From a virus (lineage: Duplodnaviria > Caudoviricetes), in the IMG/VR virus record IMGVR_UViG_2061766007_000586, positions 128,001-192,000 of that record: a DNA stretch of 64,000 nt; one strand, given 5' to 3'. The notes below the pieces were generated by a model. The model was not told the origin of the DNA, searched no databases, and worked only from the letters and a program-made list of their open reading frames with translations. Of the stretch, positions 4,552 through 52,926 are shown in pieces; positions within the stretch are counted from its first letter, which is position 1; the number at the start of each line of letters is the position of its first letter. The position numbers and the translations under genes were made by a program.

Positions 4552-5382
4552 TTAACCCTTCTTCTTAGACTTGTTAATTTTGTTACTCCAGACAATGGTC
4601 TCTGTAAAGATTCCATTGTCACCTTCATCAATTTCATTGATGATCTGTGTACCGTCCTCAATCAAGAGTCCATCAAGAGATGATAACTTTGCTCCATCAA
4701 AAGCTTTGCGATAGATTTTAACCGTATTGAGAACTTTCACATTTTTAAATGTGATATCATCTCCACCGTAGATGCTAAGTGTACCGGTGTTAACAGATAC
4801 GTCTTCCATAACACCTTTATACACTCTCAACTCACCGTTAGATTCACATGTTTTGATGGAACCACCACGAAGGTAAACCATGGCTCTTTCACAGATCTTA
4901 GATCCGGATAAAATTCCACCATCGTAAATCATGCAATTTGAATTGGCAAGAAGAGATGTATGATTGATATGTGTACCATTATGGATCGTGCATACACCAT
5001 CAATGATGGCAATATAGCCATTAAAATGGAATGTGAGTTCGGGTGTATAATCAGCATCTTTGAGAAATACGGAACCACCTTCTTCCGAAATATCTCGAAC
5101 AGTGGCGTTCTTAACGAACAGTTCACCTCTTTGCCAAAGACTGATCTTTTCAATCTCACCTTCAATGGCTTGTACTTTACCACCCTGCTTAACTGTCACT
5201 GTGGAAACTTTACCACCGTTAACAATAAGCTCGGTACAAACAAAGTGAGGATTACCTTGATCATCGATCAAGCATCCGCACTGATCTTCATGAAATCCTT
5301 TGTCGTTCATGACAACGACATTTGAGATAAAATCTCCAGGACCAACAGCAATCGTACAAAGTGCATGCTTTTTAATTTGCAT
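4552..5382 (-). CDS. AIDA-like beta-helix repeat protein
   Basis: 276 aa; VTVKQGGKV, ISLWQRGEL, ISEEGGSV repeats paralogous to neighbours. Confidence 0.75.
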   Translation of the reverse strand: MQIKKHALCTIAVGPGDFISNVVVMNDKGFHEDQCGCLIDDQGNPHFVCTELIVNGGKVSTVTVKQGGKVQAIEGEIEKISLWQRGELFVKNATVRDISEEGGSVFLKDADYTPELTFHFNGYIAIIDGVCTIHNGTHINHTSLLANSNCMIYDGGILSGSKICERAMVYLRGGSIKTCESNGELRVYKGVMEDVSVNTGTLSIYGGDDITFKNVKVLNTVKIYRKAFDGAKLSSLDGLLIEDGTQIINEIDEGDNGIFTETIVWSNKINKSKKKG

Positions 5383-5896
5383 TTTCTTCCACCTTAGGCT
5401 GGAAGATTCTGATAACAGAATCTTTTATAATTGAAAGTTTAGGATGTATAATGTTGTCAATGAATTCATGAGGATTTTTATATCCTCTATATTCGTAATA
5501 CTTGTCGTCAACATAAAGAACAGCATTCTCTTCAAAATTCAAGACAATATCTTTTGTCTTAGAAAGAAATGCTAAGCCTACATGTAAACGACCGTTTTCT
5601 TGAATATGGATTGAATGAATTTCAGGAGTTCCTGCAATATATACCGATGCTAATGCACCAATATGAATTGTGTTAGCAACACAATGATATCCAATCTTTG
5701 CTGTTAAATTTAAACCTTTACAAAGAACAAGAGTATCAACGATTGCACCATCATACATTGCAAGTTCAGTACACGACATTGTAACATTATCCATTGAACT
5801 TACAACGTCATTGATAGAATTGGTTACAAGAACCTTACCTACCTTGTCTCCTCTTTCAAGTACAAGACGACGTGTGAGTAATTCCGTTAATTGCAT
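5372..5896 (-). CDS. Beta-helix repeat protein (probable start MQLTELL)
   Basis: SD AAGGAG before ATG at 5896; shares the CTEL and IHIQENGRL segments with ORF 4552..5382. Confidence 0.65.
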   Translation of the reverse strand: MQLTELLTRRLVLERGDKVGKVLVTNSINDVVSSMDNVTMSCTELAMYDGAIVDTLVLCKGLNLTAKIGYHCVANTIHIGALASVYIAGTPEIHSIHIQENGRLHVGLAFLSKTKDIVLNFEENAVLYVDDKYYEYRGYKNPHEFIDNIIHPKLSIIKDSVIRIFQPKVEENAN

Positions 5897-5906
5897 TTGA
5901 GTCTCC

Positions 5907-6194
5907 TTATCGAGGTGTATATTGACATTCTGTTGTAACTTCGAAAATATTCTTTGAACAAAGATCACAGATAGGAAATTGCTTCTTATCTGTTTTGAAA
6001 TTTGCACAACTTGTACATTTTTTGATTTGTGGAATACTGTAGATAAATTTTGCATTAGCATTAACAGCACACCAAATACCATCGATGTCATTTTTGAAAG
6101 TTTGAATTGCTCCTAACAAAAATAACTTATCCTGCTTGAGCATATTGATTTGCTGCTGAAGCTCTTTGATTTTCTTACGATTGAAAAGATCCAC
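5907..6194 (-). CDS. Small early protein: coiled coil plus CxxC...CxxC zinc-finger
   Basis: GTG start with SD GGAGG; KKCTSC...ICDLC; first gene after the promoter motif at 6229-6238. Confidence 0.7.
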   Translation of the reverse strand: MDLFNRKKIKELQQQINMLKQDKLFLLGAIQTFKNDIDGIWCAVNANAKFIYSIPQIKKCTSCANFKTDKKQFPICDLCSKNIFEVTTECQYTPR

Positions 6195-6228
6195 AATAAA
6201 CCTCCTTGCTTAAATTGGTTACATTTAA

Positions 6229-6238
6229 GTTATATATA
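6229..6238 (-). promoter_or_regulatory. Phage early-type promoter (TATATATAAC)
   Basis: Matches the TATATATNNC motif repeated upstream of many units; similar to the phiKZ early promoter TATATTAC. Confidence 0.65.
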
Positions 6239-6271
6239 TTTTAACCTATTATCAAAAAAAATAAAAGAACA

Positions 6272-6301
6272 GCTCGTAGGCGTTGCCACACGCCTACGAG
6301 C
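6272..6301 (-). terminator. Intrinsic terminator
   Basis: GCTCGTAGGCG/CGCCTACGAGC 11-bp stem followed on the minus strand by a long T-run. Confidence 0.85.
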
Positions 6302-6309
6302 CATTAATT

Positions 6310-6897
6310 GTTCCAGGGACCCGGTCAACAAAATCCCTTATCATCCATGTTACCTACCTCACTTGCGTACGACTTATTGCCAATGCGTAACTCACTAAAC
6401 CAAAGTTATTCACTCATCAGAGTAAATAGTTTACGTCCTAGTAAGCTGGATAGATTTTGAGACCAACTGAAAGTGGCATTTTCAGTATCTCAAGGGCTGT
6501 ACCGAAGCAGCTCAGCATGTGTGAATTCTAGTATCGGATTGTCCTGGCTAGTACCAGTTAGACTAATTGGATCTCACTCTTACACGTTTCAAAAACTCGT
6601 CACATCGGATGTACATGGAGCTCAGGGAACCGCTTTTCGACTATAAGACCTTTTCATCTCTAACACGTGGTGTTGATCTAGGTTATCCACGCGTAGTACA
6701 TGATGCAGTGACCGACGTCTGCGTTCAAATACGACTATCATGCTAGCCGTCCATGGCAAAGAAATGAGGATCAAGGTGGACTCTCTCGATCCTCAACGTA
6801 ACTAGAATTCTTGTCCAGACGAGATATCTTCTTGGCGCCATCGACTACATCCTCATGGCCTATCTGAGCCTGCATCAGCACTCTAGTATACAATGGA
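6310..6897 (-). ncRNA. Candidate large (~590 nt) structured non-coding RNA
   Basis: No credible ORF, GC-richer than flanks, own promoter motif (6898-6907) and terminator (6272-6301), several local and long-range helices. Confidence 0.65.
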
Positions 6898-6907
6898 GAC
6901 ATATATA
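6898..6907 (-). promoter_or_regulatory. Phage early-type promoter (TATATATGTC)
   Basis: TATATATNNC match just downstream of terminator 6927-6954. Confidence 0.55.
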
Positions 6908-6926
6908 CATAAAAAATATTTGAAAA

Positions 6927-6954
6927 TGTCTGGAGATGTTTCCATCTCCAGACA
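6927..6954 (-). terminator. Intrinsic terminator of the DUF4422 pair
   Basis: TGTCTGGAGATG/CATCTCCAGACA perfect 12-bp stem plus TTTT. Confidence 0.8.
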
Positions 6955-6964
6955 AGATATACGA

Positions 6965-7711
6965 TTATGAGAAGAGAAGAATATGGGGCTGGACGCAACG
7001 GAACCCTTCAAGGTTCATCATTCTTGCGAAGTAATAGCCATCAACAAATTCAAGAATCTTAGCAGCTGCGCAGATAGGATAGGTCTTACCATCACCACTA
7101 TCAGCAATGACCGGCTGAAGCTGGTCGATAGCCTGCATCACTTTAGACATGAAATCATCAAGCTTTGTAGTAGGCATGATGAACAGGTTGGATGTCGGGA
7201 GATAATCATGAGCCATGAAGTCATCATGCATCTGCTGTTCTTCAGTTGAACGATTTGGATACAGAGTATCAATCAGGTCAAGTGTAATCTGCTTCAGAGA
7301 AGGATTGAAACGAGCTTCACCCATAGCATCCACATTAGGAACACCAAAACCAGCACGAGTTGGTGAAATGATGGTATCAGGAGTTAAAACACCACCCTGG
7401 TTCCAGGTATTAGCGGTATAGAAACGACGGAAATGATTAAGACCAATAAAATCAGGATTATCAAGCTTATCCAGATTCTTCCATGCCCAATACAGCTGAG
7501 AAATTTCATAAATGTAAGGATTCAGATTGGAGATGTTATCCGCACCATCATCATCACCTTGCATATCTGCATACTGTTCAGGAATATTACCAAGAGCATG
7601 TCCACCCATCACAGGCACATAGATCTCTCCTTCAGGATCATATTCCGGAAAATAGCTACGATAGTCTCTTGCATTTTTGTCGTAAGCAACGATAATTTTT
7701 AAAGCACTCAT
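6965..7711 (-). CDS. DUF4422-family (glycosyltransferase-like) protein
   Basis: IIVAYDK, YVPVMGG, DDDGADNISNLNPYIYE, YWAWKN, DFIGLNHFRRF motifs. Confidence 0.85.
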   Translation of the reverse strand: MSALKIIVAYDKNARDYRSYFPEYDPEGEIYVPVMGGHALGNIPEQYADMQGDDDGADNISNLNPYIYEISQLYWAWKNLDKLDNPDFIGLNHFRRFYTANTWNQGGVLTPDTIISPTRAGFGVPNVDAMGEARFNPSLKQITLDLIDTLYPNRSTEEQQMHDDFMAHDYLPTSNLFIMPTTKLDDFMSKVMQAIDQLQPVIADSGDGKTYPICAAAKILEFVDGYYFARMMNLEGFRCVQPHILLFS

Positions 7712-7733
7712 AAAAATTTCCTCTTATTTAAAG

Positions 7734-8513
7734 TTATGCTAAATAAGTAATTGTTCCATGCTGACAATGATAATCACCAACATTGACTAATCTATCAAGA
7801 TAGAAAGCAGTGAAATATTCCATGAGTTTTTCAGCTGCACGACTCTGATAGAATCCATTATCAATACCTTCAAAAATCGGTTGTAAAACTGTAATAGCTT
7901 GTTCAACCTTAGTCATGTAATCATTGAACACTTCTTTTGGCATAATAAACGCATTATGCTTTGCAAGCAGTACCCAATTCTTCCATTTTGTGTAGAATGC
8001 TTGATCAGCTTCTGTCATATTTGGGAAAAGCTGTGCGATCAAATTTTCACCTTCATCTTTAAGAGAAGGAGTGCATGTTTTCTTTAGATATAATCCGTTC
8101 AAGCCATATCCTGTTGCATTGCACATTACAACATAGTTCGGTAAAAGACCAATTTCTGTTGGCATATGTGTTTCTGGATCTTCTGCACCGAGCCAAGAAG
8201 GTGGCGCAAGAATACGGCGATAGTGACAAAGTCCGATATAATCTGGATTACCGATCTTATCTTGATTTTTCCATGCCCAGTAAGCATGAGTTAATTCACA
8301 CAGATAACGATTTAAGTTAGAGATATTTTCTCCATCATCATCGCCCTGCATATCTGCTAATTCGTCAGGAATTTCCCCTAACACGTGGCCACCCATAACC
8401 GGCACATAAACATCACCTGGTTGATATTTTTGGCCTTCTTCAAAGGCGGTTAATCTACCACGATAGTCTTCGGAAGACTTATCATAAGCAACTATAATTT
8501 TTAAATTCTTCAT
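7734..8513 (-). CDS. DUF4422-family (glycosyltransferase-like) protein, paralog
   Basis: DDDGENISNLNRYLCELT, YWAWKN, DYIGLCHYRR motifs. Confidence 0.85.
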   Translation of the reverse strand: MKNLKIIVAYDKSSEDYRGRLTAFEEGQKYQPGDVYVPVMGGHVLGEIPDELADMQGDDDGENISNLNRYLCELTHAYWAWKNQDKIGNPDYIGLCHYRRILAPPSWLGAEDPETHMPTEIGLLPNYVVMCNATGYGLNGLYLKKTCTPSLKDEGENLIAQLFPNMTEADQAFYTKWKNWVLLAKHNAFIMPKEVFNDYMTKVEQAITVLQPIFEGIDNGFYQSRAAEKLMEYFTAFYLDRLVNVGDYHCQHGTITYLA

Positions 8514-52843: not shown

Positions 52844-52926
52844 TGGTGCTGAGGGCGGGACTCGAACCCGCATGGATTGCCCGGCAGATTTTAAGTCTGC
52901 TGCGTATGCCATTTCGCCACCCCAGC
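52844..52926 (-). tRNA. tRNA-Leu(TAA)
   Basis: GCTGGGG/CCTCAGC acceptor, anticodon arm GCAGA-CTTAAAA-TCTGC, variable arm, GCGGG-TTCGAGT-CCCGC, ACCA end. Confidence 0.95.

What the first reader, a model, noticed from the sequence alone, without database searches (positions are those of the whole stretch)
6310..6897. Candidate ~590-nt large structured phage ncRNA in its own early transcription unit
Seen: no credible ORF and clearly GC-richer than the flanks. It is bounded by a TATATATGTC promoter motif (6898-6907) and a strong terminator (6272-6301), and the upstream operon is insulated by another terminator (6927-6954). On the minus strand the 5' TCCATTGT pairs with the 3' ACATGGA as a closing stem. 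AGTGCTGATGCAG (~6870-6882) pairs with CTGCATCATGTACT (~6695-6708). A perfect 10-bp long-range pairing (6801-6810 with 6523-6532) crosses that helix and would form a pseudoknot. Local hairpins lie at 6765-6795 and 6457-6493. Known: large ornate RNAs such as ROOL, GOLLD and OLE have this size range, and ROOL and GOLLD occur in phages. Inference: a large, possibly new, ncRNA class expressed early by a jumbo phage.
Basis: partly seen in the sequence, partly recalled or inferred. Interest (0 to 1): 0.88.

Follow-up and report, generated by a model that had tools for sequence, protein, structure and literature searches.

The report
Phage RNA locus with swappable antisense insert
A gene-free stretch of a rumen jumbo phage makes a very abundant ~450-base RNA, and just upstream carries a hypervariable insert copied, in antisense, from replication genes of a small mobile element of rumen Lentisphaerae, which may be a new RNA-based weapon between mobile elements.

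Summary
The observation largely holds. Window 6195-6964 has stops of all three kinds in all six frames, is GC-richer than its flanks, and has the promoter motif, terminators and hairpins described. No Rfam family matches.

The interpretation needs revision. In cattle rumen metatranscriptomes only about 6300-6747 is covered. In one run its depth is about 2000, against 4-15 for the neighbouring genes. Contigs of two runs run into sequencing adapter right after 6746/6747, so a discrete RNA end lies there. The abundant RNA is therefore about 450-485 nt, not 590. Its fold is not clearly better than shuffled controls, so "ornate" is unproven.

The remaining 5' ~150 nt is a different module. Related phages are 94-99% identical on both sides of a 74-192-nt insert (window 6805-6878) that is unalignable between them.

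Four of five unrelated inserts match, always antisense, replication-module genes of small integrase-bearing elements in Lentisphaerae genomes. The window's insert is 91% identical over 46 nt (E 2.6e-12).

My best reading is a phage-borne antisense cassette against a satellite-like element, coupled to an abundant partner RNA. The function is inferred, not shown. This scan's only other note on this stretch is a second first-stage reading of the same phage genome.

The parts
6927..6954 (-). Perfect 12-bp hairpin ending the upstream DUF4422 operon (probable terminator)
   Evidence: Inverted repeat I3. Identical in all group A relatives. The RNA contig of the upstream operon stops at 6962.
6898..6907 (-). 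Promoter-like motif TATATATGTC of the RNA locus
   Evidence: Sequence. There are 5 copies in the genome, all on the minus strand; the copies at 249681 and 309462 lie about 30 nt before a ribosome-binding site. Kept in groups A, B and C. Promoter activity is inferred.
6879..6899 (-). Conserved 5' handle of the leader. Its ACUAGAGU pairs with the 3' flank AUUCUAGU.
   Evidence: 96.5-98.8% identical among five group A loci. The flanks close a stem round the insert in all five MFE folds.
6805..6878 (-). Hypervariable insert (74 nt here). Bases 6835-6880 are antisense to a gene of a Lentisphaerae integrative element.
   Evidence: 13-32% 'identity' between unrelated inserts, against 94-99% in the flanks. 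91% identity over 46 nt to G003:C15 (L028 7848-7893), opposite strand, E 2.6e-12 per genome.
6757..6804 (-). Conserved 3' handle, 11-bp hairpin (6765-6795) and U-rich tract (terminator-like)
   Evidence: Only G-U-compatible changes occur in the stem.
6748..6759 (-). Motif UUGCCAUGGACG just before the RNA end. The core UUURCCAUGGRSG is shared by groups A, B and C.
   Evidence: TTGCCATGG occurs only twice in the genome, so it is not a general promoter.
6300..6747 (-). Abundant RNA as seen in metatranscriptome contigs. The 5' end is at 6746/6747.
   Evidence: Contigs: X1 6300-6747, X2 6343-6746, X13 6316-6649, X5 6443-6682. X5 depth is 2021, against 3.8-14.6 for flanking genes. Illumina adapter follows 6747 (X1) and 6746 (X2). 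The strand is inferred from the terminator.
6268..6305 (-). Intrinsic terminator of the RNA locus
   Evidence: Compensatory changes between groups A, B and C.
6227..6236 (-). Early-class promoter TATATATAAC of the next operon (not part of the RNA)
   Evidence: RNA contigs of the downstream operon begin at or below 6208.

Best explanation
The gap 6195-6964 is a two-part non-coding RNA locus read on the minus strand.

Part 1 (about 6899 to 6757) is a leader. It has a conserved 5' handle, then an exchangeable insert, then a conserved 3' handle that pairs with the 5' handle, then a hairpin and a U tract. The insert is a piece of a gene from a small integrase-bearing, satellite-like element of rumen Lentisphaerae. 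It is carried so that the phage transcript is complementary to that element's mRNA.

Part 2 (6747 to about 6300-6262) is a conserved 450-485-nt RNA. It accumulates to a hundred or more times the level of neighbouring mRNAs. Its 5' end lies right after the conserved UUUGCCAUGGACG.

Proposed working: the phage transcribes the leader, which pairs with mRNAs of the element's replication module (primase-helicase and the genes after it). This would block their translation or mark them for cleavage, holding down a parasite or competitor in the infected cell. The insert is replaced as the elements vary. The abundant RNA would be a co-transcribed partner, released by cleavage at 6747, acting as stabiliser or scaffold.

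Shown: no ORF, RNA abundance, a discrete end, hypervariability, and the source and orientation of the inserts. Inferred: one primary transcript, processing, antisense action, and the partner role.
For: - RNA. 18 bovine-gut metatranscriptome runs from at least 17 studies hold 20-43% of the words of 5900-7300. Contigs cover only about 6300-6747. Depth in X5 is 2021 against 3.8-14.6 for the flanks, and adapter follows 6746/6747 in two runs.
- Hypervariability. Five group A loci are 94-99% identical in both flanks but 13-32% in the insert, which is 74-192 nt long.
- Source of the L016 insert. It translates on the opposite strand to a 53-aa peptide that is 72% identical to D5_N/DUF5906 primase-helicases (E 3.5e-8 against 1.84 billion proteins). 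These are encoded in Lentisphaeria MAGs.
- Matches to the same element. The window's insert matches at 91% over 46 nt (E 2.6e-12). The L002 insert matches at 91% over 34 nt, across the primase stop and about -16 to +31 of the next gene.
- A group B phage (L010) has a 113-nt insert at the same promoter. It is antisense to -50 to +11 of an AAA_25 replicase next to an integrase (E 1.8e-10).
- Orientation. All four matched inserts are antisense.
- Target element. Its layout is tRNA-Ser, integrase, HTH_17/excisionase-like gene, primase-helicase, then two unknown genes, about 7 kb in all.
- Controls. The conserved 499-nt body has no match in 401 Lentisphaerae genomes. Across the whole phage genome, only the insert and tRNAs match 334 kb of these loci.
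- Architecture. The stem-closed insert plus hairpin and U tract recurs in all five leader folds.
Against: - No read or contig shows the leader RNA itself, and the strand of the RNA is not measured.
- One insert family (L012/L025) has no identified source.
- Four of four antisense is only p = 1/16 under random orientation.
- Two inserts lie inside or at the 3' end of target ORFs rather than on start sites.
- Matches are 77-91% identical, so the true targets are relatives of the elements found.
- The phage's host is not established as Lentisphaerae.
- The abundant RNA starts downstream of the insert, so the two parts are not shown to act together.
- Groups B and C mostly carry a fixed structured leader, not an insert.
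Confidence: 0.5

Rival explanations
1. Stand-alone abundant non-coding RNA. The 450-485-nt RNA is the only functional product. The variable insert is a neutral scar of repeated illegitimate recombination in a dispensable, palindromic leader.
For: Only 6300-6747 is seen as RNA. The flanks of the insert form a palindrome containing GAATTC and CTAG, which could be a break hot spot. One insert has no identifiable source.
Against: Independent insertions occur at one site in near-identical phages, and at the same promoter in a distant group. All traceable ones come from replication modules of one kind of element, and all are antisense. The handles and hairpin around the insert are as conserved as the body.
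Confidence: 0.25
2. Guide plus scaffold of an RNA-guided effector. The insert is a long guide, the abundant RNA is a scaffold of the tracrRNA or omega-RNA kind, and an unidentified phage protein acts on the element's DNA or RNA. The leader's 3' handle (GAAUUCUAGU) pairs with the body's ACUAGAAUUC, as a repeat pairs with an anti-repeat.
For: The variable part and the large conserved RNA are linked in all group A loci and in L010. The 10-12-bp handle-body complementarity is kept in L016. The RNA is highly abundant, as expected of a protein-bound RNA.
Against: No nuclease or Cas-like gene is next to the locus. The neighbours are DUF4422 genes and unknown small proteins. There are no repeats. Inserts are 74-192 nt, far longer than known guides. 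The body fold is not significant. There is no covariation in the handle-body pairing.
Confidence: 0.15
3. Remnants of integration or excision of the element in the phage genome, or a decaying gene or spacer without function.
For: The target elements carry tyrosine integrases. Relatives have an extra gene (RNA_pol_A_CTD) near this place.
Against: The inserts come from inside coding genes, not from element ends. The region is 94-99% conserved outside the insert and highly expressed. All frames are closed in all relatives (ORF lists).
Confidence: 0.07

Closest known systems
ROOL and GOLLD large phage-associated RNAs (Rfam RF03087, RF01998)
   Same: A long non-coding RNA of several hundred nt, found in the rumen or in phages, highly expressed, with no known function.
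   Different: No Rfam match even at E 10. No significant consensus fold. It carries an upstream hypervariable insert, which those RNAs are not known to have (my knowledge).
Virus-borne mini-CRISPR arrays and the phage ICP1 CRISPR-Cas system that targets PLE satellites
   Same: A virus keeps short copies of a rival mobile element's sequence at one fast-changing locus and expresses them as RNA.
   Different: No direct repeats. There is a single insert of 74-192 nt rather than 30-40-nt spacers. No cas genes are seen nearby. Strict antisense polarity suggests RNA targeting.
Antisense-RNA control of satellite and phage replication or immunity operons (P4 CI RNA, P1/P7 c4 RNA, P22 sar; from my knowledge and earlier notes e1-228162, e1-256154)
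   Same: A small structured RNA with a terminator hairpin pairs with the mRNA of an early or replication operon. P4 CI and c4 are cut out of a longer transcript.
   Different: Those RNAs are encoded by the element they control and have fixed short recognition sequences. Here a different genome (a jumbo phage) carries exchangeable long copies of the target.
Uni-strand piRNA clusters of animals (e.g. flamenco)
   Same: It works alike on paper: a transcribed 'trap' locus collects fragments of mobile elements in antisense orientation.
   Different: Eukaryotic, made of many fragments, and dependent on Piwi proteins. This is an analogy only, with no homology.
SviR, the small RNA of the PLE satellite that acts on phage ICP1 transcripts (my knowledge; the PLE/ICP1 transcriptome paper PMC7567579 appeared but I did not read it)
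   Same: RNA pairing used in a phage-satellite conflict.
   Different: The direction is opposite (satellite against phage), and no hypervariable cassette is involved.

Membership tests
ROOL / GOLLD / OLE / raiA and other Rfam large RNAs | Match to the family covariance model | tested here: not met
   cmscan of the window at gathering threshold finds only a tRNA. The region at E up to 10 gives only terminator noise. Eight related loci give none. Loci of groups C and B at E up to 10 give noise.
Group I/II intron, RNase P RNA, tmRNA, self-cleaving ribozymes | Covariance-model match; for introns, flanking exons | tested here: not met
   No Rfam hit. ARAGORN finds no tRNA or tmRNA in the locus or in six relatives. 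There is no ORF to be interrupted.
Large structured ('ornate') ncRNA in general | A conserved secondary structure supported by covariation, or by a fold better than shuffled alignments | tested here: inconclusive
   Group A has 0 compensatory pairs among 173 predicted, with 22 one-sided changes and 6 breaks. Column-shuffle z is -1.5 for the group A body and -1.2 for the B/C body. The B/C alignment has 25 pairs with compensatory change, but they rest mainly on the single B-versus-C contrast. The penultimate hairpin and the terminator do covary across A, B and C.
Discrete stable RNA | A transcript with defined ends, far more abundant than neighbouring mRNAs | tested here: met
   depth 2021 against 3.8-14.6, and adapter follows 6746/6747 in two runs of different studies. 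The 3' end is only bounded (at or below 6300).
CRISPR array (mini-array) | Direct repeats of about 24-37 nt on both sides of spacers of about 30-40 nt | tested here: not met
   No such repeats in the window's gap or in L016. Only a short imperfect RAATGAATT appears on both sides in some variants. Inserts are 74-192 nt.
CRISPR-Cas / OMEGA-type guide RNA | An adjacent effector gene (Cas, IscB, TnpB and the like) | tested here: not met
   The eight neighbouring proteins have no PHROG hit. The only Pfam hit among them is DUF4422. The rest of the 318-kb genome was not screened.
Trans-acting antisense RNA | Extended complementarity to a target mRNA encoded elsewhere | tested here: met
   Window insert: 91% over 46 nt, E 2.6e-12. 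L002: 91% over 34 nt. L016: 77% over 115 nt. L010: 82% over 62 nt across a start codon. All lie on the strand opposite the target gene.
Trans-acting antisense RNA | Own promoter and a terminator hairpin with U tract; the RNA is detected | tested here: inconclusive
   The promoter motif and a hairpin plus UUUCUUU are present and conserved. No contig covers 6748-6961, which is no evidence either way.
Phage satellite or small integrative element (the target, L028/L026) | Integrase next to a tRNA gene, AlpA/excisionase-like regulator, primase-helicase, small size, no capsid or terminase genes | tested here: met
   tRNA-Ser at 2543-2634, integrase, HTH_17/phrog_66, and D5_N/DUF5906 = phrog DNA primase. 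About 7 kb lies between host genes (biotin synthase-like radical SAM gene and a Sel1 protein). Dependence on a helper phage cannot be tested here.

The most novel reading that the evidence does not exclude
This jumbo phage lineage keeps a repeat-free, heritable 'memory' locus. At one site behind a dedicated promoter it captures fragments of the replication genes of satellite-like elements living in its host. It expresses them as long antisense guides, in partnership with a very abundant ~450-nt scaffold RNA that the guide's 3' handle can pair with. That would make it a third kind of nucleic-acid-based adaptive interference, beside CRISPR arrays and piRNA clusters, used by a virus against its own parasites.
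Probability: 0.3. Interest if true: 0.95.

Novelty: categorically new. Interest (0 to 1): 0.86.

Why it matters
If the reading holds, a virus uses exchangeable antisense copies of another mobile element's genes, without CRISPR repeats or Cas genes, to fight that element. That would open a new chapter in phage-satellite conflict and suggest a simple, programmable RNA tool.

It also gives a host lead (Lentisphaerae) for an uncultured rumen jumbo phage lineage. It identifies one of the most abundant phage RNAs in cattle rumen metatranscriptomes.

Even on the most sober reading, this is a new, widespread and highly expressed phage ncRNA with no known family.

Tried and rejected
- Other genetic codes. 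All three stops are mixed in all six frames.
- A small ORF starting at the conserved (A/G)TG before the insert. It is 36 and 33 codons in the window and L002, but stops after 3 codons in L012, L016 and L025, and there is no ribosome-binding site.
- Relatives in IMG/VR and in cultured phages. None were found by flanking proteins, polymerase or DNA patterns. The two 16-mer hits L022 and L023 were chance matches.
- A tRNA-like reading of the B/C leader. ARAGORN finds nothing, and the T-loop is non-canonical.
- The L016 peptide. It has no match in cultured phages, Pfam or the first genome scan. It was found only by the exhaustive HMMER search.
- The source of the L012/L025 insert. It was not found in 401 Lentisphaerae genomes, phages or plasmids. 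A 22-nt low-complexity hit is probably chance.
- The body RNA as captured DNA. It has no match.
- Pairing of the CCAUGG motif with the 3' hairpin strand. It is plausible in groups A and B but falls elsewhere in group C, so I left it open.
- Parts without RNA contigs (6209-6299, 6748-6961). These give no evidence either way.
- A covariance model of the body was not built: it exceeds the column limit and there are too few sequences.
- phiKZ promoter consensus. It could not be read from PMC10914365, so my comparison with phiKZ TATG and TATATTAC motifs rests on memory.

Full report
**Setting.** The window is bases 128001-192000 of a 318.6-kb IMG/VR phage record rated complete. It encodes a divergent family B polymerase (PF20286) that is only about 24% identical to those of phiKZ-like jumbo phages. 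Samples that hold it or its relatives are rumen or cattle-gut assemblies.

**The observation.**
- Window 6195-6964 is a 770-bp gap in a genome that is about 90% coding by my crude gene call. No frame exceeds 75 aa, and every frame holds a mixture of TAA, TAG and TGA, so no recoding rescues a gene.
- GC rises to 0.41-0.475, against 0.30-0.39 around it.
- The terminator 6268-6305 works only on the minus strand.
- The hairpins 6927-6954 and 6765-6795 and the inverted repeat 6523-6532 / 6801-6810 are all there.
- The motif TATATATGTC recurs five times in the genome, always on the gene strand.
- Rfam has nothing for the window or for eight related loci.

**Is it an RNA?** Eighteen bovine-gut metatranscriptome runs from at least 17 studies hold 20-43% of the sampled words of 5900-7300. 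I laid four runs on the stretch.
- Contigs cover 6300-6747 (X1), 6343-6746 (X2), 6316-6649 (X13) and 6443-6682 (X5).
- In X5 the depth is 2021, against 3.8-7 for the downstream operon and 14.6 for the upstream one. DNA carry-over cannot explain that ratio.
- The X1 and X2 contigs continue into Illumina adapter directly after 6747 and 6746. Many molecules therefore end there, which marks a discrete RNA end. It is the 5' end if the RNA is minus-strand, as the terminator implies.
- The abundant RNA is thus about 450 nt, or 485 nt if it runs to the end of the terminator. It is not the 590 nt proposed.

**Relatives.** Searching with the downstream 174-aa and 95-aa proteins and the upstream DUF4422 protein found syntenic contigs. 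All have a 540-890-bp ORF-free gap at the same place. They fall into three groups:
- Group A: the window, L002, L012, L016 and L025.
- Group B: L003 and L010.
- Group C: L005, L011 and L014.

Groups B and C align over their whole length at about 64% identity. Group A shares three things with them: the terminator region, the next operon's promoter, and a short motif UUURCCAUGGRSG that lies just before the mapped RNA end.

**Is the body structured?**
- Within group A the body is 94-99% identical. Of 173 predicted pairs none shows a compensatory change.
- The B/C alignment has 25 pairs with compensatory changes.
- A column-shuffle test that keeps the conservation pattern gives z -1.5 for the group A body and -1.2 for the B/C body. 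It gives -3.9 for the B/C leader.
- The penultimate hairpin (AGGGA/UCCCU in A, GGGGA/UCCCC in B, GGAGA/UCUCC in C) and the terminator do covary.
- I therefore regard an elaborate conserved fold as unproven.

**The turn: a hypervariable insert.**
- In group A, the upstream hairpin, the promoter and a 21-nt 5' handle are 96.5-98.8% identical. Everything from the 3' handle to the next operon is 94-99% identical.
- The segment between them (window 6805-6878) is unalignable, at 13-32% apparent identity, and ranges from 74 to 192 nt.
- There are four unrelated inserts among five distinct loci. L012 and L025 share one insert.
- In all five leaders the conserved flanks (ACUAGARU and AUUCUA(C)UAGU) close a stem round the insert. 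A conserved 11-bp hairpin and a UUUCUUU tract follow.

**Where the inserts come from.**
- The L016 insert, read on the opposite strand, gives an open 53-aa peptide. An exhaustive HMMER search found eight proteins. The best is 72-74% identical over 35-36 residues (E 3.5e-8). They are D5_N/DUF5906 primase-helicases, and the match ends at their Walker A motif.
- The best of these proteins is encoded in a Lentisphaeria MAG. Relatives lie in another Lentisphaerae MAG and in a rumen MAG.
- On the rumen MAG locus L028, the window's own insert matches 7848-7893 at 91% (E 2.6e-12 against that whole genome). The L002 insert matches 7358-7391 at 91%.
- The L016 insert matches the primase gene at 77% over 115 nt in L026, and in four further genomes.
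- The group B phage L010 has a 113-nt insert at its promoter that L003 lacks. That insert matches the region from -50 to +11 of a 1066-aa AAA_25 replicase lying next to an integrase in another Lentisphaerae genome (E 1.8e-10).
- All four matches are on the strand opposite the target gene. The phage transcript would therefore be complementary to the target mRNA.

**The target element.** L028 reads: tRNA-Ser, tyrosine integrase, a 359-aa unknown, an HTH_17/excisionase-like protein, the primase-helicase, a 181-aa and a 545-aa unknown, then host genes. This is the layout of a small (~7 kb) satellite-like integrative element. Such primases occur in 52 of 401 genomes sampled from that phylum.
- The window's insert covers the 3' end of the 181-aa gene and stops 24 nt before the start of the 545-aa gene.
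- The L002 insert spans the primase stop codon and about -16 to +31 of the 181-aa gene.

**Controls.**
- The conserved 499-nt body finds nothing in 401 genomes of the same phylum.
- A BLAST of the entire phage genome against 334 kb of these loci returns only the insert and tRNA genes.
- The handles occur once in the genome.
- There are no CRISPR-like repeats.

**Reading.** I propose a leader RNA that carries an exchangeable antisense copy of a resident element's replication genes, coupled to an abundant RNA released at 6747.
- The coupling is suggested by the constant adjacency of the two parts.
- It is also suggested by the shared motif at the junction.
- A third hint is a 10-12-bp complementarity between the leader's 3' handle and the body at 6523-6532, kept in L016. 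It lacks covariation and is near chance expectation for a single sequence.
- The function, the unity of the transcript, the timing and the host are all inferences.
- The promoter is a minor class: it differs from the roughly 45 TATATATWAC sites and shares TATG with a CATYYTATGC motif seen before many genes.

**Literature.** Literature searches in the held library found no description of such a cassette. A 2026 review of jumbo phages says only that phiKZ expresses non-coding RNAs (PMC13282480). Earlier notes of this scan describe satellites controlling their own primase operons by antisense RNA. That makes an antisense attack on that operon plausible, but it is not evidence for it.

Noticed in passing
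window 6227-6236 and genome-wide (G000): There are two promoter-like classes. TATAT[AT]AC has 56 sites, of which about 45 show the fuller form TATATAT[AT]AC on the minus strand; many follow T runs. A CATYYTATGC motif lies 30-60 nt before many genes, often right after a terminator. The locus's TATATATGTC class has only 5 sites.
   Followed up: partly
L005 3133-3627; L010 1972-2484; L014 11269-11781; L006 103-597: Relatives carry a 164-170-aa gene with an RNA polymerase alpha C-terminal domain (PF03118) between the RNA's terminator and the 95-aa gene. The window and the other group A loci lack it.
   Followed up: no
window 5372-6194: The 239-aa ORF 5372-6091 is probably over-called, since homologues are 168-187 aa and cover about 70% of it. 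The real genes are a ~174-aa protein and a conserved 95-aa protein (5907-6194) with paired cysteines (CxxC, CDxC).
   Followed up: partly
L019 1-89; L020 1-69; L021 1-107: Three independent metagenome contigs begin exactly at the promoter after the RNA locus. Assemblies seem to break at the hypervariable locus.
   Followed up: no
L002 5706-5990 versus L005 3642-3929: Mosaicism at the locus. L002 (group A RNA) has a 95-aa protein only 43-47% identical to the window's. L005 (group C RNA) has one that is 95% identical. Recombination breakpoints seem to lie at or beside the RNA locus.
   Followed up: no
L003 1325-1436; L005 2590-2700; L014 10702-10812: Groups B and C have a fixed ~100-nt leader of three hairpins, the last T-arm-like. 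It is more conserved (87-95%) than the body (64%), with a significant consensus fold (z -3.9). Its role is unknown.
   Followed up: partly
G000:C1:224497-224590 (outside the window): A phage tRNA-like stretch is 77% identical over 96 nt to the Lentisphaerae tRNA-Ser next to which the target element is integrated. This may be plain tRNA homology.
   Followed up: no
G000:C1: 123132-124868, 214484-215620, 225048-225883, 226160-227188, 231194-232021: These are other ORF-free gaps of 0.8-1.7 kb in the same phage genome by a crude gene call. Some probably hold tRNAs or further RNAs.
   Followed up: no
window 52844-52926: tRNA-Leu (TAA) on the minus strand. It is the only Rfam or ARAGORN hit in the window.
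   Followed up: yes
window 6965-8513; L003 207-1316; L014 7286-10695: The operon upstream of the RNA varies between relatives. It has two to three DUF4422 glycosyltransferase-like genes, with or without a UDP-galactopyranose mutase (GLF) gene.
   Followed up: no
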